This document shows positions 7,896 to 35,208 of a DNA stretch of 64,000 nucleotides, in pieces. The position numbers and the translations under genes are program-made. Every line of letters begins with the position of its first letter. Position 1 is the stretch's first letter. Location: positions 335,978,001-336,042,000 of the forward strand of contig OZ024743.1 of NCBI GenBank assembly GCA_964016885.1, written 5' to 3'. A model generated the notes under the pieces. It ran no database searches, had not been told where the DNA came from, and saw only the letters and a program-made list of their open reading frames with translations. The DNA is from Eledone cirrhosa (taxonomy: Eukaryota).

Positions 7896-8052
7896 CGCGT
7901 ATGTGTATAAATTTTCTTCAGTAAAGTAGTGAATAATGAACATTTGAGCATTCTTCAGATAGGATCAATGTGTGACGTTACAGTTGTTGCTCTTATCTTC
8001 TTTAAAGACGAATTTTGTAAATTAGCTAGTAGCTTTTCTTATTATTATTATT

Positions 8053-9932
8053 CACTCTACTGAATGTGAAGGCAAAACTAAAAAGCTACCATCACAACCT
8101 TCTGCCATAGCAGCAGTATCATCTGAAAACGACATCATCACCACCGCCACCACCACCACCACCACCACCACAACAACAACAACAACAACTCAGAGCAATA
8201 ACGACAATAACACCGACAGCTTCAATGTAAACAAGGATGGCGGTGGCAACAGCAAGAATGACAACAACAACAATAAGAGCATCAGAAACACCACATTTGC
8301 TGCAGCAGCAGCAAAAACAAAGCGCTTATTGAATATTGATATTGATATTAGCGATAAAGAAAAACAGTTGGCCAAAGCGTGGAGGCTAATTATACGAGAG
8401 AAGTCCTGGGCAAACCTGACCATCCCGGACGAGGCAATAGCGGCCATGCAAAGGAGGACGGTGCTCTTTCGATGTATTTCGGTGCAGACACGAAAAGTGA
8501 AACTTGCGAGCCAAGCAGAGGTAGAGGCTGCTTTGAAGTACATCGGAAGTAAATAGAGTACAAAGCAAGAGGCAAACAGTTCGGTACCATCTCGGTACTG
8601 TTCAAAACCGAGGCCCTCGCTATTAAGCACTCGGTGACCCCTGCAGAACGGAACGCATTATCATGCATCCGTCCTATATGGGTAAAAGGACAGTGATGGT
8701 ACGCATTCCCAGCATCCCACCAGGAATGAACATATGGTGGCTGCTGGGATGCGTAATCAAGGAGGGGACAGACACCACCCACCTGGACATCAGAAGGACA
8801 GAGAGAGAGGACTGGTCCGGGATGGAATTGGAGATTCTTCTCCAAATGAAACCGGAGGATATGAATAACATCCCAGATTTTGCCCGCCTGCAGGACGGGA
8901 CAACAATCCAACTAATGATTGACGGAAGAAGGCCACGCTGCTTCGTTTGCGGGGAAGCAACGCATCTTCAAGCCTTATGCCCTCAGCGCAAAAATGCAGG
9001 GGGTCGCAAACCTCCTTTGTTGCCAACGCCAGTGTCACCACGGAAAGCTGCACCACCACCACCACCAAAAACAACATCAACAAAAACACGGACACCAACA
9101 TCAAAAGTAGCCGGATCACCACCAACACCAAAACCAATCCAAGGAGAAAACGAGGAAAGCTCACCCACTCCCCCTACCCCCCCCCCCCCCAATTATACAC
9201 ATAGACAAAAAAAAATAAACGCACACACAGACACAGAGACACTCACAGACACAGACCCTTTGTCTTCCAGCAGCGAAGATGAAGGAAAACCCAAAAGTGC
9301 AAAAAAACAGAGAAAACTCACAAAAAAAGCCCCAACAAAACACAAAAACACACACAACAAAAAATACAGACACCACTAATGCAAACACTTCCCCAATAAC
9401 ATTAACACCATCAGCAACATCGACACCACCTCCACAATCCCTGAAACGCAAACAACCTAAACAAACACAAGTACAAATAAACACACAAATACCTGAAATT
9501 GCAGACACCACACCTACAACAAACATAGACATACCCGAAACAACACCACCAAAATCATCGCCACCACCTTCACCAAAACGAAAACAAATAAAACCACACC
9601 AACAAAATGTTAAAAACTTCGTGCTTGTCAGAAGGGCCAACGATAAACTGATGGCCCTCTTAGCGCGAAGCGAGGACATTCAAACAGAGTGGGAGATTTT
9701 TGAAATGAGCACATTTTGCGTGCCAGAAGATTTGCTTCTGGTCCGAATGTCACTCAATTCCTTCAAAGAAATTCGAGAGAGCTTTCCTCAAGACGTGGGA
9801 AACCCGAATGTGAAACCCACATCAAGACTTTTAAAGGGGTTCCCAAAAGAAACCCCACCAACCATGGAGGTCGAACCACCCGACCTTCACAAGACCCGGG
9901 AGGTAAGTAAACCTTCCCTCTCTCTCTCTTAG
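8053..9932 (+). pseudogene. B1 ORF1 (gag-like, frameshifted)
   Basis: GRRPRCFVCGEATHLQALC (CX2CX4HX4C) and a Pro/Thr-rich tail; pieces 8329-8556, 8663-9379 and 9279-9932; homologous to B2 ORF1. Confidence 0.85.
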
Positions 9933-9941
9933 CTTACCAAT

Positions 9942-12900
9942 ATGGCCATATTAAGAGTAGGAAGATTAATTGTTCGCGGCCTGGGGTCAACCTGGAAGCA
10001 GGGTCGCCTGCTCAACGACCTCCGATGGAAATGGATGTGATTGCCGTAAGCGAGACCAACATTTCCGACACGCGCGCACTAGCCCCCATTTTTTTACGAC
10101 TATCAGATCTTCGCATCTGTTAGCAGGCCGGGAATGGGGGGTGGGGTGGCAGTGCTGTTTAGGAAAGGACTGGATCTCGAGGTAAGGTCGATCTTCCGGG
10201 ACCCGGACGGTAAGTTGGTGGTCTTGGATGTGAGCAGTAGCGAAGGTGGTGCCTTTAGACTGCTGGCCGTCTACGCCCCTACAGGAGCGGGACGACCTGA
10301 CTTCTTTAGGCGCGTGGAGACCTTTCTGGGTACGTCTCGCCCTTTACTGTTAGCGGTGGACTGGAATGGCATCTTAGACGCACGCTGGGATTGTGTGGGA
10401 GTAGCCGATAGGAGCGGGGGGTGCAAAAGCCTCAAGCACCTACTCAGCCAGTTCCAACTGTCTGACAGGTATCGACTAGATTTCCCCAATGTGCCAGTAT
10501 GGACATGGACTAACCGAATGGGGTCATCTAGATCGTATATAGACAGAATCTTCATTAGGAAAATAGATAGAAATAGTGTGGGCTGTCCACTTTTTAAAAC
10601 GGTCGCCTATTCAGATCACAAATTTGTGATCTGTACGGTCGACCTAAATAAAACGCGTAGGTTAGCACCGGGTTACTAGAAGCTGAACATGTCATTTCCG
10701 GCACGTAAGGCTTACAGGGACCGAGTCAACAAGTTAGTTAAGCAAAAGTTGTCAGGGGGGATCATCAACAACAGACGGTGGGGGTTCTCAAAAGAGAGAT
10801 TAGAGTAACTTCGATAGAGTTCAGCAAAGAACTAGCGTTAGAGAAAAATAGAAAGGAGGGGGAGCTGGTAGATAAGTTAGACGAGGCTATTTGTAGTGGC
10901 ATCGCAACTGACATGCTAGCGGCGAGAATGGCATTAGACCATTTCTTCAATGCCAAACACGAAGGTTGCATTGTCAGAGCTAAGGCGCGTGCGCTGAGAA
11001 ACGAGGGAACTAAAGCTGTTCGATGGGCCCGCGTGGCGGAGGCGCAGCGTGGTAATAAAACCACAATTCGGTCTTTGGCGGACCGAGACGGACACGAGAT
11101 AAGCGATTCCAAGCGGATGTGTGAGGCCTTTCGCCAGCACTTTGCTCGGTTGTTCAGGGAGAGTGGCGAGTCAGAGAGAGTAGCGGATTTCAGTCCTTAC
11201 CTTGACGGCTTGCCGCGCATCTCGACGGTCGACGCTGAGCGCTGCGAAAGGCCGATTACTTCAGCCGAAATTCAGGACGCCCTTGTCGGCTGCATGAGGC
11301 GCAAGTCACCCGGTTTGGATGGCCTGCCCTACGAGCTTTACGTAAATATGCCAGACTTGTTCTCCGAACTCCTCGAAGCACTCTACTGTAACTGGCAGCA
11401 GAATGGGACTATTCCCAGTTCTGTGAGCAGGGGAGTGGTGACGCTGATAAGGAAAGACGAGAACAAGAGGGATACATTAGACAACTTCAGGCCCATAACT
11501 GCTAAACACAGAGTTTAAGATTTTGGCCAAGGTGTTAGCAAAGAGATTGGCGCTTGTCGTCGAGGATTTGGTTGGGGAGGCGCAAACTTGCGCAATCCCA
11601 GCCAGGTCCGTACACGACAATCTCCACCTCATGCGATACATCATAGAGAGGGTAGCGTGTAAACCTGGCTTCGGTGGGGCACTGATCAATTGAGATCAAT
11701 CGAAAGCATTCGATAGGGTCGACCATCGGTATCTGGAGTTTGTCCTCAAAGCAGCTGGCTTCGGCCCTGTCTTTAAAAGCTGGATCGTTGCAATGCACAG
11801 CGGCACACACTCGGTGGTCAAGGTTAATGGCCACCTCTCGGAACCATTTCGGCTCTCCCGATTGGTCCGTCAAGGGTGCCTTCTCTCTTCCCTTCTGTAC
11901 GTATTGACTCTCGAGCCTTTAATGCGGAAGCTGGAGCTGTTGCAGGGCATCCCGCTCGAACCGGGACGTGGAAAGGCGGTGTCGGCTTATGCGGACGGCA
12001 TCACCGTGATGGTGTCGAACACCTCAGAAATCGAGGTGGTCGGCACCTTATTGAAGGAATATGAAAGGTTGACAGGAGCCAAACTTAACCCGGAAAAGTC
12101 GGTGGGCTTGCAGCTCGGAACCTGGAGAGGCAAGCCCATGCCGTCCAACAACGTCGTGGGGCGCTGGACGGACGGACCAGTAAAGTTGCTCGGGGTTTGG
12201 TTCGGACCAGACCTCCAGGTGGAAAAGAATTGGGACGAGGTAACGAGCAGAGTAGCCAGTCTCTCCCAAAAATGGGCTGGGAGGAAGCTATCACTGAAAG
12301 GTCGCGCGGAGGTGGCGAATGCGTACATCGCGTCCGTCATCTACTACCGCCTAACCGTCGTGCCTTGCCCCCGTCCGCGCCTCGTCAAGTTGGAACGGCT
12401 CCTCTTCAAATTCTTGTGGATGGGACAAGTTCCGTTGGTGAGGCGGTCCATCTGCTGCCAGCACCCTCTACGCGGAGGGCTGGGCATGCCGTGGCTAATG
12501 ATGCACAGACATGCATTGAGGCTGCGACATCTCCAGATATTCTGCCTCAATGGTGAACAGGTGTGGTCGCCGTTTATCAGACGGGCCTTTCCGCAGCTCA
12601 TTTCTTTGACTGAGCTGCAGTCCTGGGTCAAGAAGAGACCGAGACTTGGTGACTGGCACCTGGAATGTTGCCAGGCACTCACTGCCCTCTACCAAGCGGG
12701 CAATGCGATCAGTGGAACTTACACTCTCGAGTTCTATAGAGGATTAGTGGTGGGCAAGTGCGATGACGCACTCGGAGAAGCTTTGGGCCTCGACGAAGTC
12801 GAACTGACCAGTCTGTACCGGAGGACTTTTGAGCCGGGTACGATGGACAATTTCCAGAAATCCCTCGCTTGGTAGTGCTACCCGGGGGCACTGCCGGTTC

Positions 12901-13349
12901 GGGATAAACTCTACAGGCACGGAAGTGCTGTCAGACGGACCTGCCCAAGATGCGCACAGAACGACGAAACCGTTCTGCACGCACTTGACCAATGTCCGTG
13001 CATTACTGACTTGTGGAGTTATGTCGAACAGCTACTGTCGCGTGTGGAACGAATCCGGCTATCGGCCGAGTCCATAGTGAAGATCGAGCCGCCACCTTCC
13101 TTAGGCCAGGAAGAGCAGGACATTTTCCTCTGTCTGGTGGAAGTTGCGAAAGAGATTATATGGTGGACCAGGTTGAATGGACTAAAGACAGACACTTTAC
13201 TCTTCGGCCAATCCCTCATCAACTTATTCAAGTTTCACCTGGTGAGGGTGGAGAGAGAGGTGCTGCCCCCCAGTACATTTGCTAAAAGGTGGGTGAATGT
13301 GGCGAGAATGGCTCGTGTGAATGGGCCTACTCTGACCATGCGCCTATAG
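9942..13349 (+). pseudogene. B1 ORF2 (APE endonuclease + RT + CCHC), disrupted
   Basis: GVAVLF, VYAP, SYIDRIF, SDH (APE); KSPGLDGLP, RQGC, AYADG (DD mutated); multiple stops and frameshifts. Confidence 0.92.
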
Positions 13350-13613
13350 GTTGGCTAACTTGAGGAGAGGGGTGCTTTCCTGAGTGCCGTAGAAGCGCAG
13401 GGTGGTTCAGGATTGGTGGGGTACGCGAATCATCCCAGGGTCGTCCACCCCTATCGGGGAATTTATTTTGTTATATTTATGCATAGTTTATTTTATATTT
13501 TTATATTTTCATTGTTAAATTAGTCTTGCCATTGTGCACTTTTACTCGACCTTATTGTAAACCCCCACTGTCCCTGTCTTTGTATTGTCCCCCTTGTGGC
13601 TAATAAATGAAAT

Positions 13614-13614
<1 letters not shown>

Positions 13615-13645
<31 letters not shown>

Positions 13646-13662
13646 TTATTATTATTATTATT
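13615..13662. repeat. (ATT)n spacer
   Basis: Direct reading; other (ATT)n spacers at 8039-8052, 19534-19585, 23759-23787, 24307-24365, 28918-28930, 29238-29309 and 35176-35220. Confidence 0.95.
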
Positions 13663-13871
13663 TGCGACCTACGTAGTAAATCGTATCATCGTGAGCTCCG
13701 CAAAGGTTTGTTATTTCCGTTTGTTAAAAATTGCCATTTATGGAAAATTTTATTGTTAACTGTTTATAAGCACACATACATTGTTTTCCGAAAAGGACAC
13801 CCAAAAAAGATTGGGGCCTTGTGCCCAAAATTTTAACTTTTATTATTATCCAAAAATTTCTTTGAAAAAAA

Positions 13872-15835
13872 TTGGCTAATTCCCCTCTGCACGAAGCAGC
13901 TGAAAGCCTTCCTCACAAAATAACACCTCACACCGACACCACCATTGTAAATGTTACTACGTTTGCCAACACAAAAAAAAATATAAGCAGTAGCAATATT
14001 TTAAATTTGTCTCAGGCAGACATTCATTTCCCGCCATTGCCAATGACTGCAGGTGTTAAAGCCTCCACCACCACCACCACCGCGACAACCACCACCCCCA
14101 GCACCACCGCGACAACAGAAACAAAAGAAGAAAAAATAAATTAACTCGTGATGTCGAAATGAAATCAAGCAAAATGGACTCTTCCGCACCAAAGACGACT
14201 GACGTCACCACCACCACAACTGAAACTAAAATTAATATTAACACAAATAACGATAGCAACAACAACAACAATGACATTATAAAACCCCCCCTCAGTTTCG
14301 CCATAGTAGCAAAACAATTTGAAGCATTCACGGTAACTCAAGACGATTTAGAAAATGCCAAACAAATGGTAAAGAAAAATGGGTACAGGGTCAGCGTCCC
14401 CCCCCCCCCCCACCTAATAAAATGGAGCATCGGCGCCTATGCACCGTGTCGTATAGAACAATAAATGTAAAATCGCGCCGAGTGGAACGGGCATCCGAGT
14501 CCCAAATCCAAAAAGCTTTGGGACATGTGTGGGCAAGAAAAACCCACATCAGACGTGGGCCAAAGTATGGAACCGTGGATGTGTTCTTTGAAACACCAGA
14601 GGAGGCTAGAGAACACTCCATGGCCCCATTAAAAAGTGACGACTTCACACTCGTCCCAAGCTATTGTGGCCAGAGACTCGTAAAGATCAGGGTGACCCAC
14701 GTTCCACCGGCCATCGAAATTCCCTGGCTAATAGCGGCTGTCCTCGCCGGCATCGAAGCCAACACGAAAATAATAGCAATAGCAAAAGAAAAGCAGGAAA
14801 ACTGGTCCGGATCTGGGATGGAGCTCCTAATCCAAGCGGACCAAAAAAGCATTGAGGAGATCCCAGAGGTAATAGACCTCACTGACGGCAGCCACCTCAC
14901 GGTAATTGTCGAGGGCAGAAGACCTAGGTGTGTCGTTTGTGGTGAAGGAACCCACCTAAGGGCTTTCTGCCCTCAGGCTAAAAGGTTGAGGCCACCTCTC
15001 CTACCCACCCCAGTGACACAACCATCAACACCACCAGTAGCAGAGATGGCAGCAACAACTGTAGCAGCAACAACAGAAGCAACTATAACAGCAACAACCC
15101 CAGCAACAGTAGCAAAACCAACACCACCCAACGCTTCAGAACTAGCACCAGCGCCTACACCATCCACCACACCACAACCAAAACTAACGGCTGTGGAGGA
15201 TTTTCCACTCCCCGGCCTATCACAACTGGAGACAGATTGGGACGACGAGGAGTGGGAAACGATATCCGGAAAAAAAAAGAAACCAAAAAAGAAAAAATTC
15301 TCTTCCTTCCCCCTCCAAAAACAAAATACAGAGGGAAACAAATAAATTAAGAAACAAAAAAGTTAGGACAGATATGCCACCATCCACACCAGCATCACCA
15401 ACCCCATCAACCCAAACACCAACACCATCACCATCATTAACCCCAGCACCACCATCACCTACACCACAAAAGTCACCAAAATGCGAAACAGAAACAAACC
15501 CACAACAAACGCAAACAAAACAAAACAACCAAAACGATACACACTACACAGCATTAAATTTGAAAAACAAGCAATTATTACACTACATCCAACACAACAC
15601 CAGCATCACAGAAAAAGACTACACAACAACCCCAAAATTCACACCACCTCCACACATACAAATCACTCGCATCACACAGAAAACGTACATGACACTAAAA
15701 CAAAAATTCCCCAAAGACATCGGAGACTTCCGACAAGCACTCTCCAGGAGGATTTATAAGGACATCCTTCCTGAGGAGGCCACAAGCAGTGAAAAGGATG
15801 GAAAAACCGTCCTTCCCCTACGAGAAGTAAGGTAA
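13872..15835 (+). pseudogene. B2 copy 1 ORF1 (zinc knuckle; frameshifts in homopolymers)
   Basis: GRRPRCVVCGEGTHLRAFC; pieces 13872-14144, 14159-14464, 14422-15345 and 15374-15835 can be joined by 1-nt shifts. Confidence 0.85.
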
Positions 15836-15869
15836 GTGGTCTTTCCCATCTTTTCCACTCCTTTTCAAC

Positions 15870-18800
15870 ATGACCTCACTCAGAATAGGCAGCATAAATG
15901 CGCGTGGCTTGGGGTCGTCATGGAAGCAGGGCCACCTGCTCAACGACCTCAGGTCACTAAACATAGATGTAGTGGCCATCAGCGAGACCAGAATCTCCGA
16001 AGCACAGGCTTTCGCACCGATCTTCGGCGGTTACGATGTGTACGCATCTCCCAGCCGTCCGGGATCGGGGGGAGGAGTTGCTGTGCTTTTTCGGAGAGGT
16101 TTGGATCTTGCCATACGGGCCATCTTCCTGGACCCAGAAGGTAAGTTGGTGGTGCTGGACGTGACCAGCGGAGACGGGCAAGCTTTCAGGTTAGTGGCCG
16201 TCTATGCCCCGACAGGAGCAGAGCGGCCTGATTTCTTCCGGCGTCTGGAGACCTTTCTTGGAACGTCCCGCTCTTTAGTGTTAGTGGGCGACTGGAACGG
16301 GATCTTAGATGCACGCTTGGATTGTGTGGGATTAGTAGATAGGGAAGGAGGGTGCAAGAGTCTCACCAACCTGCTCAGACGTTTTGAACTGTCTGACAGG
16401 TACCGAATGGATTTCCCGAATGTACCAATGTGGACTTGGACAAATCGCATAGGGTCATCCAGATCATATCTAGATAGAGTATTTTGTAGGGAAATAGATA
16501 GGTCTAGCATAGGATGTCCACAATTCAAGATAGTCAGCTACACGGACCACAAATTCGTGATCTGTGTGCTTGACTTAGATAGGCTTCATAGACGAGGACC
16601 CGGCTACTGGAAGTTAAACGCGTCCTTACCAGCGCGCAAGGCCTACAGAGACCGGATTAGCGAACTAGTTAAGCGGGCGTTGACGGGGGGCCATCGTCAA
16701 CAACAAGTGGTGGTTTGCTCTGAAAAGAGCAATTAGAATAGAGTCCATTAGGTTTAGTAAGACTTTAGCAATAGAGAAAAATAGAGCAGAGGGAGAATTA
16801 GTTAGAAAATTAGATGAGGCGATTAGCAAAGGCATCGCGACCGACGTACTTGCGGCGAATTTGGCCCTTGACCAATTCTTCAATGCAAAGCACGAAGGCT
16901 GCGTTGTCAGAGCTAGGGTGCGTGCTCTCAGACACGAGGGGACGAAAGCCGTTCAATGGGCCCGAGTGGCGGAGGCGCGTCGTGGCAACAAAGCCACGAT
17001 CCGGTCTTTGGTGGACCACGACGGGCGCATGCTACTCGATCCCGGGCAAATGTGTGAAGCTTTTCAGCGACACTTCGCTCAACTGTTCGGGGGCAGTGGC
17101 GGGCCGGATCGAGGGATGGACTTTAGTGTCTACCTCGACGGACTGCCGCGGCTTTCGGCCACTGAGGCGGAGTGTTGCGAAAAGCCGATAACAACCGCTG
17201 AAGTACGGGATGCAATGACTAGTTGCACAAGGAGTAAATCGCCTGGTTTGGATGGTCTGACCTATGAACTTTACGTACAAATGCCAAACTTGTTCGGAGG
17301 CCTCTTGGCGGACGTCTACTGCAACTGGCAACAGAACGGGAGAATTCCCAGCTCTGTGAGCCGAGGAGCGGTGGCGCTGCTGAGAAAGGATCCGAACAAG
17401 GAGGATAACATAGATAATTTTAGGCCCATAACTCTGCTAAACACAGAGTTCAAGATTTTGGCCAAGGTGCTAGCAAAGAGGTTGGCGCTTGTCGTTGGTG
17501 GTCTGGTGGGAGAGGCACAGACATGCGCCATTCCCGACAGATTCATCCACGACAACCTCCACCTCATGCGATACATCGTAGAGAGGGTAGCTAGGGAATC
17601 TGGCACGGGTGGGTCTTTGATCAATTTAGATCAGTCGAAAGCCTTCGATAGGGTCGACCATCGTTACCTAGCGGCAGTCCTGAGGGCGGCTGGCTTTGGG
17701 CCCGTCTTCAGAGGCTGGATCGCTGCCATGCACAGCGACATCTGCTCTGTAGTGAGAGTGAACGGTTACCTTTCGGAACCGTTCAACATCATGCGCTCGG
17801 TCCGCCAAGGATGACCCCTCTCGTCCCTATTGTACGTATTGACTCTCGAGCCATTACTGCACAAACTGGAGACGTTGAGGGGGGTCCCGCGCGAACTAAG
17901 ATGCGGAAGATCCGTGTCAGCATATGCCGACGATGTCACCGTAGTGGTGTCGAACGCCAAACACATCGAGGCGATCGGCACTACACTAAGAGAATACGAA
18001 GCGGTGACAGGAGCAATGATCAACCAGGAAAAGTCAGTGGGCCTGCAGCTCGGCACCTGGAGAGGCAGGTCCATGCCGTCCAACAGCGTCGTCGGGCGCT
18101 GGACGGACGGACCGGTTAAATTGATAGGGGTCTGGTTCGGTCCAGACCTCCAGACGGACAAAAAATGGGACGAGGTGACGAGCAGGGTGGCTTCTCTCAC
18201 CCAGAAATGGGCCGAGAGGAAGCTATCCCTGAAAGGTCGAGCGGAGGTGGCGAATGCGTACATCGCATCCGTCATCTACTACCGCCTGACCGTCGTACCT
18301 TGTCCTAAGCCCCGCCTGACTGCGCTGGAGCGTTTGCTCTTTCGCTTCTTGTGGAAGGGACGCGCTCCGATGGTCAGGCGGTCCATCTGCTGTCAACACC
18401 CGCTACGTGGAGGGCTGGGCATGCCGTGGCTGATGATGCGCAGACACGCGCCCAGGCTACGACATCTCCACCTCTTCCTCGACGGTGATCAGGTGTGGTC
18501 GCCGTTTGCAAGACACGTTTTTCCCCAGCTCGTCTCCTTGACGGAGCTGCAGTCCTGGGTCAAGCGAAACCGAGAGGGAGCGCTTGGAGACTGGAATGTC
18601 TTCAGGCGCTCACAGCCCTCGACCAATCGGGCAATGTGATCGGTGGAAACTCCACCTTGGCGTTCTATTGGAGATTAGTGGAGGGGAAGAGCGACGACGT
18701 ACTTGGAGAAACTCTAGGCGTCGACGAAAATCAACTAGCCAATCTCTTCGGAAGGACTTTCGGGCCGGGGCCTATGGACAACTTCCAGAAACCCCTGGCC

Positions 18801-19289
18801 TGGCAGTGCTACCGAGGAGCTTTGCCAGTTCGGGATAAACTCTACAGGCATAGAGGTGCCGTCAGCCGGGCATGTCCGAGATGCGCGCAGGGCGACGAAA
18901 CCGTCCTGCACGCACTCGTCCAGTGTCCGAGCATTGCTGACTTGTGGGTTTATGTCGAACACCTGCTGTCACGTGTAGGACGTATCCGGCTATCAGCTGA
19001 GTCCATCGTGAGGATTGCCCCGCCCCCTTCCTTTAGCCTGGAAGGGCAGGCAGTTTTTATCTGTCTGGTGGCCATGGCGAAAGAGATAGTATGGTGGACA
19101 CGTTTGAAAGGGCTGAAGACGAGCACTTACCTCTTCGGTGATGCCCTGATTAACTTTTTCAAATTTCATTTGAAAAGGAAAATCAGGGTAGAGAGGGAAG
19201 TGCTCTCTTCCCAGCATTTTGTTGAAAGATGGGTGAGAGAAGCAAGTATGGCCCGAATGAATGGGCCTTCTCTGAGTATGTGTCTGTAA
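15870..19289 (+). pseudogene. B2 copy 1 ORF2 (APE-RT-CCHC)
   Basis: SINARGL, ISET, GDWN, SYLDR, TDH; LDQSKAFDRV, VRQG-stop (TGA at 17812-17814), AYADD; CPRC..HALVQC; two frameshifts. Confidence 0.93.
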
Positions 19290-19532
19290 ATTAAAGGTGG
19301 AAAACTGGGAGAGGGCACTTGCCCTGGTGGTCAGGGCCACTGTGGTCTTTTAATTGGCTTTCTCCACAAATGTCCCTTGGAAGTCTCCCCCCTATTGGGG
19401 AATTTTTCTTTGTTATTTTATTTCAACCTCTGTTCTTTTTACACGCAGAAATGCCCATTTGTACCGTCCTGTATTGTCCTGTACTGTCCTTAATGTCTAC
19501 TTTATGTAAGCCCTTGTGGTTAATAAAGAAAA

Positions 19533-19581
<49 letters not shown>

Positions 19582-19585
19582 GTTG

Positions 19586-23758: not shown

Positions 23759-23787
23759 TATTATTATATTTATTATTATTGTTATTA

Positions 23788-24306
23788 CTCTTTGAGTCTC
23801 AGTCATTGATGTTAGTTAACTGGAAAGTTTGTTGAGATGAATATCAAGCCACTACCTGCAGCCTCAGATATTCAGGACGTATCGGAGGGTTCTTGCTGTT
23901 CCCAGCAAGCATGCCTTTTGAAGCGTTCCAAAAAGCGTGAAGGGGCCAATTTTCTTTAACCATCCCTGGAAACTTTTTGAGATAGTACCTAGTGCGCCTA
24001 TGACAATCGGGATCACTTTGACTTCATGGCAGTTCCAAATCCTTTTTCCCTCCCAATTTAATTCCTGGTATCGGTTAATTTTCTCCCTCTCCTTCTCTTG
24101 CACTCTCGTGTCGAATGGGCAGGCCACATCCACAATTAGGCACGATCTTTTTTCTTTGTCCAAAACCACAAGGTCAGGTCTATTGTGTTCCAGTTTCTTG
24201 TCCGTCTGTATCCTAAAATCCCACAGCACCTTCACCTGATCGTTTTCTATCACCGACTCTGGCTTATGCTCATACCACTTCTCAGAATGTGGTAAATTGT
24301 TTACTT
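23788..24306 (-). mobile_element. 5'-truncated family C copy 2 (RLE end + 3' UTR)
   Basis: WDFRIQTDKKLEHNRPDLVV..DVACP..GTARTLRYVLNI-stop; truncation point joins directly to (TAA)n. Confidence 0.92.
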
Positions 24307-24365
24307 TTATTATTATTATTATTATTATTGTTATTATTATTATTATTATTATTATTGTTGTTATT

Positions 24366-27300
24366 CCTTGAATCTCAGTCATTGATGTTGGTTAACTGGA
24401 AAGTCCGTTGGAATGAATATCAAGCCACTACCTGCAGCCTCAGATATTCAGGACGTATCGGAGGGTTCTTGCTGTTCCAAGCAAGCATGCCTTTTGAAGC
24501 GTTCCAAAAAGCGTGACGGGGCCGATTTTCTTTAACGATCCCTGGAAACTTTTGGAGATAGTCCCCAGTGCGCCTATGACAATCGGGATCACTTTGACTT
24601 CATGGCAGTTCCAAATCCTTTTCACCTCCCACTTTAGGTCCTGGTATCGGTTAATTTTCTCCCTCTCCTCTTGCACTCTCGTGTCGAAAGGGCAGGCCAC
24701 ACCCACAATCAGACACGATCTTTTTTCTTTGTCCACAACCACCAGGTCAGGTCTATTGTGTTCCAGTTTTTTGTCCGTCTGTATCCTAAAATCCCACAGC
24801 ACCTTCACCTGATTGTTCTCCATCACCGCCTCTGGCCTATGCTCATACCATTTCTCAGAATGTGGTAAATTGTTTACTTTGCACAGGTGCCAGTGGATCA
24901 CCCTGCCCATCACATCGTGTCTCCAGCCCTTATAGTGGGTCTGGGCTAGGTGTTTACACTCGGACACAATGTGAGCCACAGTCTCCTCTCTCTCTCCACA
25001 GATCCTGCACAGTGGGCTAGCCTCCTCCTTGTAAATATGGTGCTTCAACCACTTCGTTTTGAGGGCCTGCTCCTGCGCAGCCATAAGCATTCCTTCTGTA
25101 GCCTTTTTGAGGTCTCCTCTTCTCAACCAGTTCCATGTCTGCGGATCTCTAAATTCAGTTTTCTCAAAGAAGGTACTATGAAGGGATTTTCCCTTAAGGC
25201 TGCTCTTCCTCCTTGATGTTATTTCCTCCTTGGACATCCCCTGGCCTACTGTCCCCTCCTTCAGTACAGTTCTGAGCATTGGCTCCTTACTATAGGTCAC
25301 GTATTTGTATAGGTTGTTTTTCTCCATCTGAACACAGTCCTCTATGCTGATAAGACCTCTTCCCCCCTCAGATCTCCTTAGGTAGAGTCTATCGACATCA
25401 CTCCTCTTGTGGAACATGTTGTAGATAGTCAATAGCTTCCTAGTCTTCCTCTCCATTTCTTTTTGTTCAGCAACATTCCATCTCAGAATTCCCGCACTGT
25501 ACCTAATAATAGACAGAGCTCGGGAATTTACTGCGCTTATGGCATTTCTGCTGTTCAGATGTGACTTCAATACGCTCCTTACTCTCCGAATGTATTCAGT
25601 TCTTAACAATTCCTTAATTTTTTTGTTCTTGATGCCATCAGCCTCCAGAACGCCCAAATACTTGTATCCTTCCTCAGAGTCAATTTCCTTTATCATCTCA
25701 CCTGTTGGTATCTGGATCCCGTTACTTCTGCTCAACCTACCCCTCCTCATCACAATGACTCCACATTTACTAATACCAAACTGCATACATATATCACTGC
25801 TGAAAATACGGACAGTGTCAACAAGCACATCCAACTCCTTCTCACTTTCCCGAAGAGCTTAAGATCGTCCATGAAGACGAGGTGATTGATGGTAAGCTCT
25901 CCCTTTCCCAACTTGTATCCCGCTCTCACTTTTCGCAGCATAATGGTCAAGGGCATCAGGGCAAGGACAAACAACAGAGGGGACAGGCTATCTCCCTGGA
26001 AGATACCTCTATTGATCTTCACGCTTCCCAAGGATACTCCAGTTGATGTCAACTCTGTCTCCCAGGACCCCATACTCCTGCCCAGCAACTGTCTGATGTT
26101 ATCTGCCACCCTGAAGATCTCCAGGCTTTTGGTGATCCAAGAATGAGGCACCATGTCAAATGCCTTTCTGTAGTCTATCCATCCCATGGCAAGATCAGTG
26201 TGTCTCCTCCTGCAATTCCCCATTACCATCTTATCAATAAGCAACTGGTCTTTTGTACCACGTGACTTCTTTCGGCATCCTTTCTGTTCGTCCGGTAACA
26301 AGTTGTTTGTGTGGAGGTGATGGTAGATTTCCTCAGACACAATGCTCGTCAACAGTTTCCACATTACGGACAGACATGTGATAGGTCTATAGTTGGTAAC
26401 ATCATTACCCTTGATTCGGTCCTTCATTACCAGAACTGTGGTACCTTTTGTCAACCACTCTGGCACCTCACACGACACCAAGCAGTCATTGAACATGGCC
26501 GTCAGCTTCGGGTGGAGGGATGTTAAATGTTTAATCCAATACCCCTGCACACCATCTGAGCCTGGTGATTTCCAGTTGGTTAGTTTTTTGGCCTGCCCCT
26601 TAAGAGTTTCAACTGTGATACTCAAATCAGTTTGTTGGTGTGCCTGCTCACCGAACTCCCTCTGTACTGTCTCAATCCACCCTGCCTGGACATTATGTCT
26701 AACATCCTGCTCCCATATTCCTCTCCAGAATGTTTTAGTTTGCTCCGCCCCAGAGATCAAGTCGTTGCCTCTTTCTTTCCCCTCAAGCTGTCCAAACAGC
26801 ATCTTCTGGTTGTTGTCGAACATGCGGTTCTGTTTATACTGACTGACTCTGTTCTCGTATCGCCTGATTTTTGCACTCTTTGCTACAATGCGTTGCTTCA
26901 GTTCCTCTATGATAATATTTAGCTTTTTCCTCCTAGTTTTGTACTTTATTTCCAGTCTATTTTTAGTGCCTAGGTTTTTTAGTGTCCCATTCAGTAGTGA
27001 CTCAAGCTTTCCTATGTCATTTCTCATTTCCCCGATTTGACCACTCAGTCGTTTCTTCCACCACGGCTCTGCTCTTTCTTGTCTGTTGTTTCCTCTCGCT
27101 TTTATACCAAGTAGTTTCCTCACCGTATTTGCTGTTGCTTTGAGGATATTGTTGCACTGGTGAAGGCTCCTCGCCTCAAGGTATGGGATGACTTTGTTTA
27201 CCTTAGCTGTTGTTTCTTTTAACTTTTTCCTGTCTACAAATCTTAGGTTCATAGGTCTCCCACTATCATTGTTCAATTCATCTACCACTAAATTTAGGAT

Positions 27301-28917
27301 GTCAACCGAATCTTGTCCTAGCCCGTCAGCATTCATCTCCTCAGGGGCCGTATCTCTGTTCCAGGTATTATTTATCTCAGTATTCAGATCATTGTCTGCT
27401 TCGGGTGGTTCCTCCATTCTCAGGACCTCTTCACCTTCATTTCCCACTGGCTCGCTTGTCTGGCATACTACACCCGCCATCTCCAAGCCATTCTCTCTGC
27501 TCAGTTCCTCCAGTTCCAGCTCGCTTATCCACCCATTAGTTCTTATTACCCGAGCCTGCCCGGCCAATTTTTGTTCATCTAATTTAAATAGACCAATCTC
27601 GTTCCAGATGTTATGCATCCGTCTCCTGTAGCCCCTCTCCTTGGGGTTACTTTTCAGGTAACATTGCATAACAGTTCTATTCAATTCTTTCGTCCAGTTG
27701 GTTCTGGCCCCTTTCCTTCTTCTTCTTCCTCCAACATCAGCAGTATTTGGTTGACAGTCAGGTTCCTGCTGCTGAGCCAGGGGGCACCTGTTGGGTGAGA
27801 GTCTGTCACATGACGTTCTAGTCTCCATTTCACCGTTATTCGAACTGTTTATGTTCGATATTTAAACACTCTTATCGAGGATTGGCGAATGTATGGTTAC
27901 ATGGCCATCTCTGGATTCGCCGTTCCACTTGGCCCTTGTGTGGCATTATCACCACGCTGTATACGAACACACATAAACAAACAAACACACAGGCAGAATG
28001 GGCCCCAAAAATGAATAAGCATAAGTTTCATTGTAATGTAGTGTTCGAATGTCAGACTTAGTTTTTGTTTTTTTAGTTTTAGTTTTTCCCCCCTCTTCTC
28101 TGTCCGTCCGCCTGCTTCTCTCTTCATTCTTATTTTCTTTACGTTTTTTGTTTTTTTTTGTTTTTGTTTTTCTCTGTTTGTTTTTCTCGTTTTTTGCTGT
28201 TGTTGCTGTGCTGCTTTGGTTTTGTTGTTTGTTTTTCCTTTTTTCTTTTGAGTCTATCTATATATTTTGATGCCTTCCTCTTTTTTAGTAGTAGGAATTC
28301 TATAATGTGGTGGCAGCAGCCAGCTGAGTGAGGTGGGTGACTGGCGGCGGGAGCGATACTGAGACAGTGGTGGTGGTGATGTCGATACCGAGGCAGTGGT
28401 GGTGGTGATGTGTTAGTATTACTGTAGTGATGGTGTTGTAGCGGTTGTAGCAGTGAAGGAGTGAAGGAGTGGTGGCGGCGGTGATGGGATAGTGGTGGTA
28501 ATGATGGCAGTAGTGAGCGGTGGTGGTGAAATTGCCGTTATCTGGCTGTTGTGTTTAGTGTACACAGATGATGAGGTGGGTGGTGTATCTAGTTTCTGGT
28601 GTTGGTGAGTTTGGCTGTTCTATATAGTGTAGACAGAGGAGAGGAGGAGGGGGGGGGGGGTCTTCTTCCATTTATAGCCATTTTCTTTTTTGGATATACA
28701 GTGTACAATACAAAGTTGAATATTTGAATATTTGAGCCTTATAACAATATATTTTGGGTCCGAATTTGTTTGGGGCTCAAGCCGGGTGCTTTACGTAGCA
28801 TTTGTACTAAGAGTTGTTATTTCACAAATGATTTAAATATGTTAAAAATTCAAAACTTACGGGAGCGATTTCATGACCTCCGCCACCTCGTGCGTCTTCT
28901 TCCCTATTCTTCTTCCC
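24366..28917 (-). mobile_element. full-length R4/Dong-clade RLE element, family C copy 3
   Basis: ~1.1-kb 5' leader, one ORF, short 3' UTR, (TAA)n at both ends. Confidence 0.95.
24440..27828 (-). pseudogene. family C copy 3 ORF (RT + CCHC + RLE), single frameshift near 25845
   Basis: NWTKELN..MQCY..SNP..RGYRRRM (R4/Dong N-terminal motif); WIDYRKAFD, QGDSLSP, FMDDLKLF; CRIC..HIVSEC; RHD; RPD. The 692-aa and 464-aa ORFs join by one base. Confidence 0.93.
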
Positions 28918-28930
28918 TATTATTATTATT

Positions 28931-29235
28931 AAGAATGGCCCGAGTGAATGGGCCTACTCTGAGTATATATCTGTAAATTAAAGGTGGAAAACTGGGAGAG
29001 GGCACTTGCCTTGGTAGTCAGGGTCATTGTGGCTTTTTACTGGGCTTTCTCCACAAATGTCCCTCCGAAGACTCCCCCCTATTGGGGAATTTTTCATTGT
29101 TATTTTCATTGTTATTTTTGTTACATCCTCTGTTTTTGTTTTTTACACGCAGAAATGCCCATTTGTACCGTCCTGCATTGTCCTGCACTGTCCTTAATGT
29201 CTACTTTATGTAAACCCTTGTGGTTAATAAAGAAA

Positions 29236-29237
<2 letters not shown>
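28931..29237 (+). mobile_element. severely 5'-truncated Tx1-like copy (B2 variant: last codons of ORF2 + 3' UTR)
   Basis: RMARVNGPTLSIYL-stop plus a 3' UTR similar to 19290-19533; (ATT)n on both sides. Confidence 0.9.
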
Positions 29238-29309
<72 letters not shown>

Positions 29310-29517
29310 GGCGACCTACGTAGTAAATCGTATCATCGTGAGCTCCGCAAAGGTTTGTTATATCCGTTTGTTAAAAATTGCCATTTATGGAAAATTTTAT
29401 TGTTAACTGTTTATAAGCACACATACATTGTTTTCCGAAAAGGACACCCAAAAAGATTGGGGCCTTGTGCCCAAAATTTTAACTTTTATTATTATCAAAA
29501 AATTTCTTTGAAGAAAT

Positions 29518-31477
29518 ATGGCTACTTCACCTCTGCACGAAGCAGCTGAAAGCCTTCCTCACAAAATAACACCTCACACCGACACCACCATTGTAAATGT
29601 TACTACGTTTGCCAACACAAAAAAAATATAAGCAGAAGCAATATTTTAAATTTGTCTCAGGCAGACATTCATTTCCCGCCATTTCCAATGACTGCAGGTG
29701 TTAAAGCCTCCACCACCACCACCACCGCGACAACCACCACCACCACCACCATCACCACGACAACAGAAACAAAAGAAGAAAAAAATAAATTAACTCGTGA
29801 TGTCGAAATGAAATCAAGCAAAATGGACTCTTCCCCACCAAAAACGACTGACGTCACCACCACCACAACTGAAACTAAAATTAATATTAACGATAGCAAC
29901 AACAACAACAATGACATTATAACCCCCCCCCCCCCCTCAGTTTCGCCAGAGTAGCAAAACAATTCGAAGCATTTACGGTAACTCAGGAAGATTTAGAAAA
30001 TGCCAAACAAATGGTAAAGAAAAATGGGTACAGGGTCAGCGTCCCCCCCCCCCACCTAATAAAATGGAGCATCGGCGCCTATGCACCGTGTCGTATAGAA
30101 CAATAAATGTAAAATCGCGCCGAGTGGAACGGGCATCCGAGTCCCAAATCCAAAAAGCTTTGGGACATGTGTGGGCAAGAAAAACCCACATCAGACGTGG
30201 GAAAAAGTATGGAACCGTGGATGTGTTCTTTGAAACACCAGAGGAGGCTAGAGAACACTCCATGGCCCCATTAAAAAGTGACGACTTCACACTCGTCCCA
30301 AGCTATTGTGGCCAGAGACTCGTAAAGATCAGGGTGACCCACGTTCCACCGGCCATCGAAATTCCCTGGCTAATAGCGGCTGTCCTCGCCGGCATCGAAG
30401 CCAACACGAAAATAATAGCAATAGCAAAAGAAAAGCAGGAAAACTGGTCCGGATCTGGGATGGAGCTCCTAATCCAAGCGGACCAAAAAAGCATTGAGGA
30501 GATCCCAGAGGTAATAGACCTCACTGACGGCAGCCACCTCACGGTAATTGTCGAGGGCAGAAGACCTAGGTGTGTCGTTTGTGGTGAAGGAACCCACCTA
30601 AGGGCTTTCTGCCCTCAGGCTAAAAGGTTGAGGCCACCTCTCCTACCCACCCCAGTGACACAACCATCAACACCACCAGTAGCAGAGATGGCAGCAACAA
30701 CTGTAGCAGCAACAACAGAAGCAACTATAACAGCAACAACCCCAGCAACAGTAGCAAAACCAACACCACCCAACGCTTCAGAACTAGCACCAGCGCCTAC
30801 ACCATCCACCACACCACAACCAAAACTAACGGCTGTGGAGGATTTTCCACTCCCCGGCCTATCACAACTGGAGACAGATTGGGACGACGAGGAGTGGGAA
30901 ACGATATCCGGAAAAAAAAAGAAACCAAAAAAGAAAAAATTCTCTTCCTTCCCCCTCCAAAAACAAAATACAGAGGGAAACAAATAAATTAAGAAACAAA
31001 AAAGTTAGGACAGATATGCCACCATCCACACCAGCATCACCAACCCCATCAACCCAAACACCAACACCATCACCATCATTAACCCCAGCACCACCATCAC
31101 CTACACCACAAAAGTCACCAAAATGCGAAACAGAAACAAACCCACAACAAACGCAAACAAAACAAAACAACCAAAACGATACACACTACACAGCATTAAA
31201 TTTGAAAAACAAGCAATTATTACACTACATCCAACACAACACCAGCATCACAGAAAAAGACTACACAACAACCCCAAAATTCACACCACCTCCACACATA
31301 CAAATCACTCGCATCACACAGAAAACGTACATGACACTAAAACAAAAATTCCCCAAAGACATCGGAGACTTCCGACAAGCACTCTCCAGGAGGATTTATA
31401 AGGACATCCTTCCTGAGGAGGCCACAAGCAGTGAAAAGGATGGAAAAACCGTCCTTCCCCTACGAGAAGTAAGGTAA
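29518..31477 (+). pseudogene. B2 copy 2 ORF1
   Basis: As copy 1; frameshifts lie in A or C homopolymers. Confidence 0.85.
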
Positions 31478-31511
31478 GTGGTCTTTCCCATCTTTTCCAC
31501 TCCTTTTCAAC

Positions 31512-34500
31512 ATGACCTCACTCAGAATAGGCAGCATAAATGCGCGTGGCTTGGGGTCGTCATGGAAGCAGGGCCACCTGCTCAACGACCTCAGGTCACT
31601 AAACATAGATGTAGTGGCCATCAGCGAGACCAGAATCTCCGAAGCACAGGCTTTCGCACCGATCTTCGGCGGTTACGATGTGTACGCATCTCCCAGCCGT
31701 CCGGGATCGGGGGGAGGAGTTGCTGTGCTTTTTCGGAGAGGTTTGGATCTTGCCATACGGGCCATCTTCCTGGACCCAGAAGGTAAGTTGGTGGTGCTGG
31801 ACGTGACCAGCGGAGACGGGCAAGCTTTCAGGTTAGTGGCCGTCTATGCCCCGACAGGAGCAGAGCGGCCTGATTTCTTCCGGCGTCTGGAGACCTTTCT
31901 TGGAACGTCCCGCTCTTTAGTGTTAGTGGGCGACTGGAACGGGATCTTAGATGCACGCTTGGATTGTGTGGGATTAGTAGATAGGGAAGGAGGGTGCAAG
32001 AGTCTCACCAACCTGCTCAGACGTTTTGAACTGTCTGACAGGTACCGAATGGATTTCCCGAATGTACCAATGTGGACTTGGACAAATCGCATAGGGTCAT
32101 CCAGATCATATCTAGATAGAGTATTTTGTAGGGAAATAGATAGGTCTAGCATAGGCTGTCCACAATTCAAGATAGTCAGCTACACGGACCACAAATTCGT
32201 GATCTGTGTGCTTGACTTAGATAGGCTTCATAGACGAGGACCCGGCTACTGGAAGTTAAACGCGTCCTTACCAGCGCGCAAGGCCTACAGAGACCGGATT
32301 AGCGAACTAGTTAAGCGGGCGTTGACGGGGGGCCATCGTCAACAACAAGTGGTGGTTTGCTCTGAAAAGAGCAATTAGAATAGAGTCCATTAGGTTTAGT
32401 AAGACTTTAGCAATAGAGAAAAATAGAGCAGAGGGAGAATTAGTTAGAAAATTAGATGAGGCGATTAGCAAAGGCATCGCGACCGACGTACTTGCGGCGA
32501 ATTTGGCCCTTGACCAATTCTTCAATGCAAAGCACGAAGGCTGCGTTGTCAGAGCTAGGGTGCGTGCTCTCAGACACGAGGGGACGAAAGCCGTTCAATG
32601 GGCCCGAGTGGCGGAGGCGCGTCGTGGCAACAAAGCCACGATCCGGTCTTTGGTGGACCACGACAGGCGCATGCTACTCGATCCCGGGCAAATGTGTGAA
32701 GCTTTTCAGCGACACTTCGCTCAACTGTTCGGGGGCAGTGGCGGGCCGGATCGAGGGATGGACTTTAGTGTCTACCTCGACGGACTGCCGCGGCTTTCGG
32801 CCACTGAGGCGGAGTGTTGCGAAAAGCCGATAACAACCGCTGAAGTACGGGATGCAATGACTAGTTGCACAAGGGGTAAATCGCCTGGTTTGGATGGTCT
32901 GCCCTATGAACTTTACGTACAAATGCCAAACTTGTTCGGAGGCCTCTTGGCGGACGTCTACTGCAACTGGCAACAGAACGGGAGAATTCCCAGCTCTGTG
33001 AGCCGAGGAGCGGTGGCGCTGCTGAGAAAGGATCCGAACAAGGGGGATAACATAGATAATTTTAGGCCCATAACTCTGCTAAACACAGAGTTCAAGATTT
33101 TGGCCAAGGTGCTAGCAAAGAGGTTGGCGCTTATCGTTGGTGGTCTGGTGGGAGAGGCACAGACATGCGCCATTCCCGACAGATCCATCCACGACAACCT
33201 CCACCTCATGCGATACATCGTAGAGAGGGTAGCTAGGGAACCTGGCACGGGTGGGTCTTTGATCAATTTAGATCAGTCGAAAGCCTTCGATAGGGTCGAC
33301 CATCGTTACCTAACGGCAGTCCTGAGGGCGGCTGGCTTTGGGCCCGTCTTCAGAGGCTGGATCGCTGCCATGCACAGCGACATCTGCTCTGTAGTGAGAG
33401 TGAACGGACACCTTTCGGAACCGTTCAACATCATGCGCTCGGTCCGCCAAGGATGTCCCCTCTCGTCCCTATTGTACGTATTGACTCTCGAGCCATTACT
33501 GCACAAACTGGAGACGTTGAGGGGGGTCCCGCGCGAACTAGGATGCGGAAGATCCGTGTCAGCATATGCCGACGATGTCACCGTAGTGGTGTCGAACGCC
33601 AAACACATCGAGGCGATCGGCACTACACTAAGAGAATACGAAGCGGTGACAGGAGCAATGATCAACCAGGAAAAGTCAGTGGGCCTGCAGCTCGGCACCT
33701 GGAGAGGCAGGTCCATGCCGTCCAACAGCGTCGTCGGGCGCTGGACGGACGGACCGGTTAAATTGCTAGGGGTCTGGTTCGGTCCAGACTTCCAGACGGA
33801 CAAAAAATGGGACGAGGTGACGAGCAGGGTGGCTTCTCTCACCCAGAAATGGGCCGAGAGGAAGCTATCCCTGAAAGGTCGAGCGGAGGTGGCGAATGCG
33901 TACATCGCATCCGTCATCTACTACCGCCTGACCGTCGTACCTTGTCCTAAGCCCCGCCTGACTGCGCTGGAGCGTTTGCTCTTTCGCTTCTTGTGGAAGG
34001 GACGCGCTCCGATGGTCAGGCGGTCCATCTGCTGTCAACACCCGCTACGTGGAGGGCTGGGCATGCCGTGGCTGATGATGCGCAGACACGCGCCCAGGCT
34101 ACGACATCTCCACCTCTTCCTCGACGGTGATCAGGTGTGGTCGCCGTTTGCAAGACACGTTTTTCCCCAGCTCGTCTCCTTGACGGAGCTGCAGTCCTGG
34201 GTCAAGCGAAGACCGAGAGGGAGCGCTTGGAGACTGGAATGTCTTCAGGCGCTCACAGCCCTCGACCAATCGGGCAATGTGATCGGTGGAAACTCCACCT
34301 TGGCGTTCTATAGGGGATTAGTGGAGGGGAAGAGCGACGACGTACTTGGAGAAACTCTAGGCGTCGACGAAAATCAACTAGCCAATCTCTTCGGAAGGAC
34401 TTTCGGGCCGGGGCCTATGGACAACTTCCAGAAATCCCTGGCCTGGCAGTGCTACCGAGGAGCTTTGCCAGTTCGGGATAAACTCTACAGGCATGGAGGT

Positions 34501-34932
34501 GCCGTCAGCCGGGCATGTCCGAGATGCGCGCAGGGCGACGAAACCGTCCTGCACGCACTCGTCCAGTGTCCGAGCATTGCTGACTTGTGGGTTTATGTCG
34601 AACACCTGCTGTCACGTGTAGGACGGATCCAGCTATCAGCTGAGTCCATCGTGAGGATTGCCCCGCCCCCTTCCTTTAGCCTGGAAGGGCAGGCAGTTTT
34701 TATCTGTCTGGTGGCCATGGCGAAAGAGATAGTATGGTGGACACGTTTGAAAGGGCTGAAGACGAGCACTTACCTCTTCGGTGATGCCCTGATTAACTTT
34801 TTCAAATTTCATTTGAAAAGGAAAATCAGGGTAGAGAGGGAAGTGCTCTCTTCCCAGCATTTTGTTGAAAGATGGGTGAGAGAAGCAAGTATGGCCCGAA
34901 TGAATGGGCCTTCTCTGAGTATGTGTCTGTAA
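31512..34932 (+). pseudogene. B2 copy 2 ORF2 (APE-RT-CCHC), one frameshift at the G6 run ~32330
   Basis: 288-aa APE part + 809-aa RT part with intact QGCPLS, YADD and CPRC..H..C. Confidence 0.93.
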
Positions 34933-35174
34933 ATTAAAGGTGGAAAACTGGGAGAGGGCACTTGCCCTGGTGGTCAGGGCCACTGTGGTCTTTTAATGGG
35001 CTTTCTCCACAAATGTCCCTTGGAAGTCTCCCCCCTATTGGGGAATTTTTCTTTGTTATTTTATTTCAACCTCTGTTTTTTTACACGCAGAAATGCCCAT
35101 TTGTACCGTCCTGTATTGTCCTGTACTGTCCTTAATGTCTACTTTATGTGAACCCTTGTGGTTAATAAAGAAAA

Positions 35175-35208
<34 letters not shown>

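What the first reader, a model, noticed from the sequence alone, without database searches (positions are those of the whole stretch)
9903..35090. Conserved predicted intron that removes the whole of ORF2 in both Tx1-like families (ORF1-only subgenomic mRNA)
Seen: a perfect AG|GTAAGT donor sits at the end of ORF1, about 40 nt before the ORF2 ATG, in B1 (GT at 9903) and B2 (15832, 31474), although the two ORF1 tails are otherwise very divergent. Each 3' UTR has a conserved CCCCTATNGGGG hairpin, then a long U-rich tract ending in YAG at the equivalent position: B1 TAG|TCTTGCCAT (13523), B2 CAG|AAATGCCCAT (19448, 35090, also 29152). Joining donor to acceptor keeps ORF1 in frame. B2 gains ..VR-NAHLYRPVLSCTVLNVYFM and stops just before AATAAA (TAA in two copies, TGA in the third). 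B1 gains 28 open codons and stops right after AATAAA. Inference: splicing yields an ORF1-only RNA that retains the 3' end, which could set the ORF1p:ORF2p ratio and seed half-L1 type non-autonomous copies. Known analogies are spliced gag RNA of Drosophila copia and ORF1-only HAL1 elements. I do not know of this being described for Tx1, but cannot check.
Basis: partly seen in the sequence, partly recalled or inferred. Interest (0 to 1): 0.85.

Follow-up and report, generated by a model that had tools for sequence, protein, structure and literature searches.

The report
Octopus LINE brackets its enzyme gene
A family of octopus-type jumping genes keeps an invariant splice-donor signal where its first gene ends, plus matching sequences predicted to fold the whole enzyme gene out as one loop; this likely lets some transcripts drop the enzyme gene, but the exit site proposed earlier is not shared between subfamilies and no spliced RNA or spliced copy was seen.

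Summary
The sites exist at the stated coordinates, but not as one conserved intron. Donor: the 8-mer AG|GTAAGT is invariant in 5 of 5 sister subfamilies (flanks 21-26% invariant) and lies in three different ORF1 reading phases, so it is probably a selected U1 site. Acceptor: B1's TAG and B2's CAG are not homologous; B3 has CAC at B2's position; young subfamily B6 has no AG after the hairpin. Only B2's CAG is strong (rank 1 of 262). No spliced copy among 1086 B2, 208 B1 and 340 B6/B5 exon-end matches; no RNA run on record. Added part, from an earlier scan note and tested here: donor-to-AUG RNA is predicted to pair with the ORF2 stop region (best of about 710 windows in 5 of 5 subfamilies, partner changing with lineage), looping out exactly ORF2 and covering the donor in B2/B3. 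Best reading (0.42): a regulated splice switch giving some ORF1-only mRNA through unfixed acceptors. Main rival (0.33): U1 binding without splicing. Host is an octopod by closest homologs. The scan noted this donor five times before in this genome. Interest 0.6.

The parts
8050..13615 (+). B1 element: Tx1-like LINE, broken copy, in an (ATT)n tract (5' end approximate)
   Evidence: PF03372, PF00078
9901..9908 (+). B1 donor 8-mer AG|GTAAGT (GT at 9903), ORF1 phase 0
9905..9946 (+). B1 5' strand of predicted long-range helix (pyrimidine spacer and ORF2 ATG at 9942)
   Evidence: 31 pairs, -36.2 kcal/mol
13342..13377 (+). B1 3' strand of predicted helix; holds the ORF2 stop TAG 13347-13349, a candidate acceptor (rank 12 of 269)
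13448..13459 (+). B1 3' UTR hairpin motif
13521..13523 (+).
13602..13607 (+). B1 AATAAA before the (ATT)n tail
13663..19534 (+). B2 element copy 1 (ORF1 broken, ORF2 ATG 15870, stop TAA 19287-19289)
15830..15837 (+). B2 donor 8-mer (GT at 15832); contains the ORF1 stop TAA, phase 2
15832..15874 (+). B2 copy 1, 5' strand of predicted helix, donor included
   Evidence: 31 pairs, -40.2 kcal/mol
19282..19322 (+). B2 copy 1, 3' strand of predicted helix; its last 7 nt pair with the donor
19389..19400 (+). B2 3' UTR hairpin motif
19446..19448 (+). B2 acceptor candidate CAG, rank 1 of 262 AGs in the subfamily
28931..29238 (+). 5'-truncated B2 3' end with CAG at 29150-29152
29310..35176 (+). B2 element copy 2 (donor GT 31474, ORF2 ATG 31512, stop 34930-34932)
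31474..31516 (+). B2 copy 2, donor and 5' helix strand
34925..34965 (+). B2 copy 2, 3' helix strand
35088..35090 (+). B2 copy 2 acceptor candidate CAG

Best explanation
These Tx1-like LINEs carry an invariant splice-donor signal at the end of ORF1 and two complementary stretches predicted to pair across ORF2, which together likely form a switch that lets a minority of transcripts splice out ORF2 and make ORF1 protein alone. Shown: the donor's conservation, its position at the ORF1 stop, and the sequence complementarity. Predicted: the helix. Inferred: U1 binds the donor while ORF2 is transcribed; once the 3' UTR appears, either the spliceosome commits to an acceptor at or after the ORF2 stop, or the helix closes, covers the donor (B2, B3) and the ORF2-stop AG (B1, B3, B5, B6), and the full-length RNA survives. 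The spliced RNA makes no ORF2 protein in cis, so it would rarely be copied back into the genome.
For: Donor 8 of 8 columns invariant across 5 subfamily majorities, against 25 of 96 in the ORF1 tail, 6 of 28 in the spacer and 93 of 239 fourfold sites in ORF2; it is the only invariant run of 4 or more before the ATG. It is kept in ORF1 phases 0, 1 and 2 between ORF1 proteins 29-36% identical over the aligned N-terminal part. A look-alike at +309 in ORF2 is lost in B5 and B6. The donor stays fixed while its predicted partner strand changes, which points to a partner in trans. Helix: own stop region beats all 704-713 other windows in 5 of 5 subfamilies; B2 -40.2 with its own partner against -21 to -24 with B1/B5/B6; B3 -47.3 against -26 to -28; spacer-only shuffles 0-26 of 1000; forms in the 3.8-kb minimum-energy fold in 4 of 5. 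Joining at the ORF2 stop gives a stop within 1-2 codons in the donor's own phase in B1, B3, B5, B6. B2, the one subfamily of five without AG there, has the strongest 3' UTR acceptor (7.4 bits). Two distant ORF1 proteins end in G-K-stop or G-K-S-stop, as a phase-1 donor would encode (P0126; P0123 from Argonauta; 2 of 7 distant homologs aligned; protein only). Precedent: Drosophila copia and plant Ty1/copia use a donor at the end of GAG (PMC5580714, passages).
Against: No spliced genomic copy: 0 of 1086 B2, 0 of 208 B1, 0 of 340 B6/B5 exon-end matches, and 2 B3 hits that are point mutants, whereas human L1 leaves spliced copies at about 2% of full-length insertions, though those keep ORF2 (PMC5860796, passages). 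The ORF2-stop acceptor is weak: ranks 6, 12, 14 and 42 of about 266, with little pyrimidine tract. B6 has no AG from the hairpin to the tail in 7 of 7 full-length copies. No AG shared by all five subfamilies scores above 1.9 bits at its weakest. B2 also keeps a phase-1 stop that it cannot use, so the matched stops may be inherited. The helix is absent from B6's global fold, and its window edges were set after a first look. Donor-like GTAAG before ORF2 in 2 of 27 distant Tx1 loci is at background (11 of 369 windows), and 0 of 8 distant loci show the helix. No database ORF1 tail matches a 3' UTR exon convincingly (150 tails).
Confidence: 0.42

Rival explanations
1. U1 binds the donor but splicing is not completed. 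U1 protects the 3.7-kb intronless remainder from early cleavage or decay; the helix then displaces U1 before 3' end formation and export, and may also gate ribosome passage from the ORF1 stop to the ORF2 AUG.
For: Donor invariant, acceptor not. No spliced copies. The helix spans exactly ORF1 stop to ORF2 AUG and covers the donor in B2/B3. In Arabidopsis EVD the same kind of donor also blocks premature termination (PMC5580714, passages). AATAAA/ATTAAA sites lie within 600 nt upstream of the donor in 4 of 5 subfamilies.
Against: ORF2 holds few poly(A) signals and none shared by all five; B3 lacks a steady upstream one. It does not explain the phase-matched stops or B2's top-ranked acceptor.
Confidence: 0.33
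2. The 8-mer is kept for a reason other than U1: a DNA-binding site or internal promoter for an ORF2 RNA, a translation-restart signal, or plain shared descent; the helix serves translation or RNA packaging only.
For: A conserved human L1 donor overlaps a RUNX3 site proposed to explain its retention (PMC5860796, passages). The motif overlaps the ORF1 stop in 4 of 5 subfamilies. Eight invariant columns in a row could occur somewhere in about 130 positions with probability near 0.07 at the fourfold-site rate (my arithmetic).
Against: The one invariant run equals the canonical donor consensus (consensus recalled), survives three reading phases, and does not change with its helix partner.
Confidence: 0.15
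3. One reading: one conserved intron from the donor to a homologous YAG after the U-rich tract, whose product seeds ORF1-only copies.
For: B2's CAG ranks 1 of 262; B1 and B3 have 3' UTR AGs ranking 5 and 7. The helix would shorten such an intron to a few hundred bases.
Against: Sites not homologous, B3 has CAC, B6 has no AG; no ORF1-only copies.
Confidence: 0.06
4. A 52-59 nt intron from the donor to an AG in the first codons of ORF2 fuses ORF1 to ORF2.
For: An in-frame AG exists for B2, B3, B5 and B6 (read). An Octopus sinensis gene model (P0121, XP_036364761.1) runs past the aligned terminal G into a tail with L-G-x-x-W-K-Q like the ORF2 start.
Against: Such RNA would keep ORF2 in cis and should leave copies; none in B2 or B6. 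No in-frame AG at usable length in B1 or the L165 type. Two AGs in two phases come from the R and I/V-G codons, so a match is likely by chance.
Confidence: 0.04

Closest known systems
Tx1-clade non-LTR retrotransposons (Tx1, Keno, Kibi, Koshi; PMC4494074, passages); L1-Tx1 families of Octopus vulgaris (13 recently active families; PMC13282606, passages)
   Same: Two ORFs; ORF1 with a CCHC knuckle; ORF2 with APE-type endonuclease, RT and zf-RVT; insertion in a microsatellite; 28-30% identical relatives sit in U2 snRNA like Keno.
   Different: Sits in (ATT)n, not (TC)n or (TTC)n. The passages seen name no splice donor or ORF2-bracketing helix ('splic' occurs 0 times in PMC13282606). Distant Tx1 loci lack both features.
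Drosophila copia spliced gag RNA and Arabidopsis Ty1/copia (EVD) shGAG RNA (PMC5580714, passages)
   Same: A conserved U1-type donor at the end of the structural gene; copia removes the whole enzyme region; EVD's donor also blocks early termination.
   Different: Those are LTR elements with one ORF, shown splicing and conserved acceptors. Here: a bicistronic LINE, no fixed acceptor, a predicted helix across ORF2, no RNA proof.
Human L1 splicing and SpIREs (PMC5860796, abstract and passages)
   Same: A LINE with a conserved donor that is mostly not used.
   Different: That donor is in the 5' UTR, its products keep ORF2 and leave genomic copies; this one is at the ORF1 end and leaves none.
HAL1 half-L1 elements (PMC5753468, passages)
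   Same: The predicted product would code for ORF1 only.
   Different: HAL1 are genomic non-autonomous families; no such copy was found here.

Membership tests
Tx1 clade LINE | ORF2 with APE endonuclease, RT and C-terminal zinc-binding domain | tested here: met
   PF03372, PF00078, PF13966
Tx1 clade LINE | Separate ORF1 with CCHC knuckle (feature recalled) | tested here: met
   565-aa ORF1 with C-x2-C-x4-H-x4-C in L014
Tx1 clade LINE | Target preference | tested here: met
   Copies end in, and mostly follow, (ATT)n; endonuclease specificity not tested
Tx1 clade LINE | RT groups with named Tx1 references | tested here: inconclusive
   Quick tree of 47 rows, careful search unfinished, no named references; B elements form their own clade with Argonauta (SH-aLRT 99); U2-inserted Keno-like loci lie in a neighbouring clade under an open fork
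Copia-type spliced subgenomic RNA | Conserved U1-type donor at the end of the structural ORF | tested here: met
Copia-type spliced subgenomic RNA | Conserved acceptor | tested here: not met
Copia-type spliced subgenomic RNA | Spliced RNA detected | not testable with these tools
   no RNA holder listed
HAL1 / SpIRE-type copies | Genomic copies with the splice junction or without ORF2 | tested here: not met
   0 of 1086, 0 of 208, 0 of 340 exon-end matches; 39 of 40 ORF1-picked loci continue into ORF2, the other has an internal deletion

The most novel reading that the evidence does not exclude
A LINE that controls its ORF1p:ORF2p ratio by splicing out all of ORF2, with the choice set by a 30-pair helix formed across 3.4 kb that joins the ORF1 stop and ORF2 start to the ORF2 stop and masks the splice sites: a copia-like strategy reached independently in a non-LTR element, with acceptor turnover between subfamilies.
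Probability: 0.4. Interest if true: 0.85.

Novelty: new variant of a known kind. Interest (0 to 1): 0.6.

Why it matters
LINEs need far more ORF1 protein than ORF2 protein and are thought to get it by inefficient restart of translation on one unspliced RNA (own knowledge). A selected donor at the ORF1 stop with a helix that closes exactly around ORF2 points to control at the level of RNA processing and structure. Under either main reading it gives a compact, testable cis-element for how an intronless parasite RNA uses U1. It also means thousands of copies carry a strong donor that could join ORF1 to host exons. Nine paper searches (open-access library only, listings read) showed no title or abstract start describing this for Tx1 or other LINEs; supplements were not read.

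Tried and rejected
No RNA holder listed among 6 runs. Contigs of 4 runs of unrecorded kind showed no donor-to-acceptor joint among the listed joints, with 1071 not shown; run X5 alone at 94% showed one skip joint, elsewhere. Contigs drop rare forms, so neither is evidence. ORF1 word-index search found nothing among 533 candidates. PF14529 in the genome gave 30 loci that were not of this family. P0135 search returned only B2 copies in 30 of 30 loci, so no deeper Tx1 lineage could be tested in this genome. Acceptor-side probe: 9 hits, 6 changed acceptors in ordinary 3' UTRs, 2 truncated copies starting at the acceptor, 1 inversion junction. The copy probes are exact-match and blind to junctions whose second base is T (B5 and B3 ORF2-stop junctions) and, for B2, to junctions starting with G; the B3 total was not counted. 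The invariant TCAGG in the 3' UTR was considered as acceptor and set aside: low scores and part of a local hairpin. AG exclusion rejected as compositional. The acceptor score uses approximate textbook frequencies (recalled), not a host-trained model. HUSH-style protection (PMC8770142, passages) does not depend on the donor and was set aside. Rows dropped: 3 single-copy clusters of 8 left out of the five-subfamily statistics; 3 of 11 distant loci skipped in the helix test. A planned motif survey of more distant families was not run, which leaves the depth of donor conservation inside this genome open.
Full report
Setting. The window lies in a 3.0-Gb genome. ORF2 is 69% identical to an Argonauta hians protein, and the named ORF1 homologs come from Octopus and Argonauta, so the host is an octopod by inference. 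B1 (about 8050-13615) and two B2 copies (13663-19534, 29310-35176) are two-ORF LINEs with endonuclease, RT and zf-RVT domains, head to tail in (ATT)n tracts. They are Tx1-like; formal clade placement was inconclusive.

Observation. All stated sites are present. To test conservation I collected copies of sister subfamilies and clustered 37 copies with both ends into 8 groups; five groups with 5-9 copies were used (B1, B2, B3, B5, B6; 72-90% identical).

The donor is real. AG|GTAAGT is invariant in 8 of 8 columns across the five majorities, against 25 of 96 in the ORF1 tail, 6 of 28 in the spacer and 93 of 239 fourfold sites of ORF2; it is the only invariant run of four or more before the ATG. 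It lies in phase 0 (B1), 1 (B3, B5, B6) or 2 (B2) of ORF1, so protein sequence cannot hold it. Of 39 ORF1-picked loci with an ORF2 start, 37 have GTAAGT. A look-alike at +309 in ORF2 is lost in B5 and B6. Two of seven distant ORF1 homologs end as a phase-1 donor would encode, a hint from protein only. Distant Tx1 loci from metagenomes show GTAAG at background (2 of 27; 11 of 369).

The proposed acceptor is not conserved. B1's TAG and B2's CAG are different columns; B3 has CAC at B2's site; B5 has a weak AG elsewhere (rank 63 of 266); B6, young and with at least 40 near-identical copies, has a perfect donor and no AG between hairpin and AATAAA in 7 of 7 full-length copies. AG scarcity is mirrored by GA scarcity.

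No spliced copies. Exact exon-end probes gave 1086 B2, 208 B1 and 340 B6/B5 matches. Probes for a changed donor gave 1, 1 and 0 hits, and 2 in B3, all local variants still followed by the spacer. Nine acceptor-side hits were not joined to ORF1. RNA could not be tested.

Two leads from earlier scan notes, tested here. First, a long-range helix. The spacer alone pairs with the 40 nt after the ORF2 stop better than 974-1000 of 1000 shuffles. The stretch from donor to ATG pairs with its own stop region better than with any of 704-713 other windows in 5 of 5 subfamilies, and better than with the other lineage's partner (B2 -40.2 against -21 to -24; B3 -47.3 against -26 to -28); within B1/B5/B6 partners are interchangeable. 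It forms in the 3.8-kb minimum-energy fold of B1, B2, B3 and B5, not B6. It pairs ORF2's AUG with ORF2's stop region, and in B2 and B3 it covers the donor. The window edges were set after a first look. None of 8 distant Tx1 loci shows it. Second, the ORF2 stop TAG as acceptor: present in B1, B3, B5, B6, followed by a stop within 1-2 codons in each donor's own phase, but weak (ranks 12, 42, 14, 6). B2 lacks this AG and has the strongest downstream acceptor; B2 also keeps an unused phase-1 stop, so the pattern may be inherited.

Mechanism. Shown: invariant donor, complementarity bracketing ORF2, unfixed acceptors, no spliced copies. Inferred: U1 binds the donor during transcription; at the 3' end, splicing competes with helix closure.

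Comparison. It would work like Drosophila copia and Arabidopsis EVD, where a donor at the end of GAG yields a GAG-only RNA and, in EVD, also blocks early termination (PMC5580714, passages). It fails the conserved-acceptor test for that kind and the genomic-copy test for HAL1 and SpIREs (PMC5753468, PMC5860796, passages). PMC3812793 and PMC4494074 (passages) list microsatellite targets of Tx1-clade elements as (TC)n, (TTC)n, (TTCC)n and (TTTC)n, and TAA for Dong. Nine searches of the open-access library (listings only) showed nothing on this donor or helix; no supplements were read. The scan's own five earlier notes on this genome reach similar readings; they are not independent support.

Verdict. 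Observation partly confirmed, interpretation partly supported. New variant of a known kind; interest 0.6, or 0.85 if splicing and the helix are shown.

Noticed in passing
window 19580-28900, minus strand: Several copies of a single-ORF RT element with a C-terminal restriction-like nuclease motif (label R4/Dong recalled) inserted in the same (ATT)n tracts as the Tx1-like elements; the two groups appear to share a target.
   Followed up: partly
window 1447-2835 and 4246-7895, plus strand: A second RT element of the same broad kind, ending in (ACAT)n tracts.
   Followed up: no
window 57197-59425, plus strand: Open 742-aa frame with no Pfam hit; by eye an RT-like motif and a GIY-YIG-like end, so probably Penelope-like (motifs recalled).
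   Followed up: partly
P0121 (XP_036364761.1, Octopus sinensis): This ORF1 gene model continues past the aligned terminal G into a tail containing L-G-x-x-W-K-Q, like the ORF2 start; it may reflect a splice, a deletion or a frameshift. DNA not available here.
   Followed up: partly
L034 and L038, near position 1503: Two 5'-truncated B2 copies begin exactly at the candidate acceptor AG after an ATT run; the probe selects for this, so enrichment is untested.
   Followed up: no
L172, L177, L183, L188: Distant relatives flanked by U2 snRNA pieces (Keno-like); L172, L177 and L183 also hold an internal U2-like match.
   Followed up: no
G000:C1:423365594-423418126, minus strand: Ten B6/B5-type exon-end matches at about 5.84-kb spacing: a long head-to-tail array.
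   Followed up: no
P0004-P0080: A large clade of ORF2 proteins 38-48% identical, almost all from ENA assemblies and unnamed, is sister to the octopod elements; its DNA would test how deep the donor and helix go.
   Followed up: no
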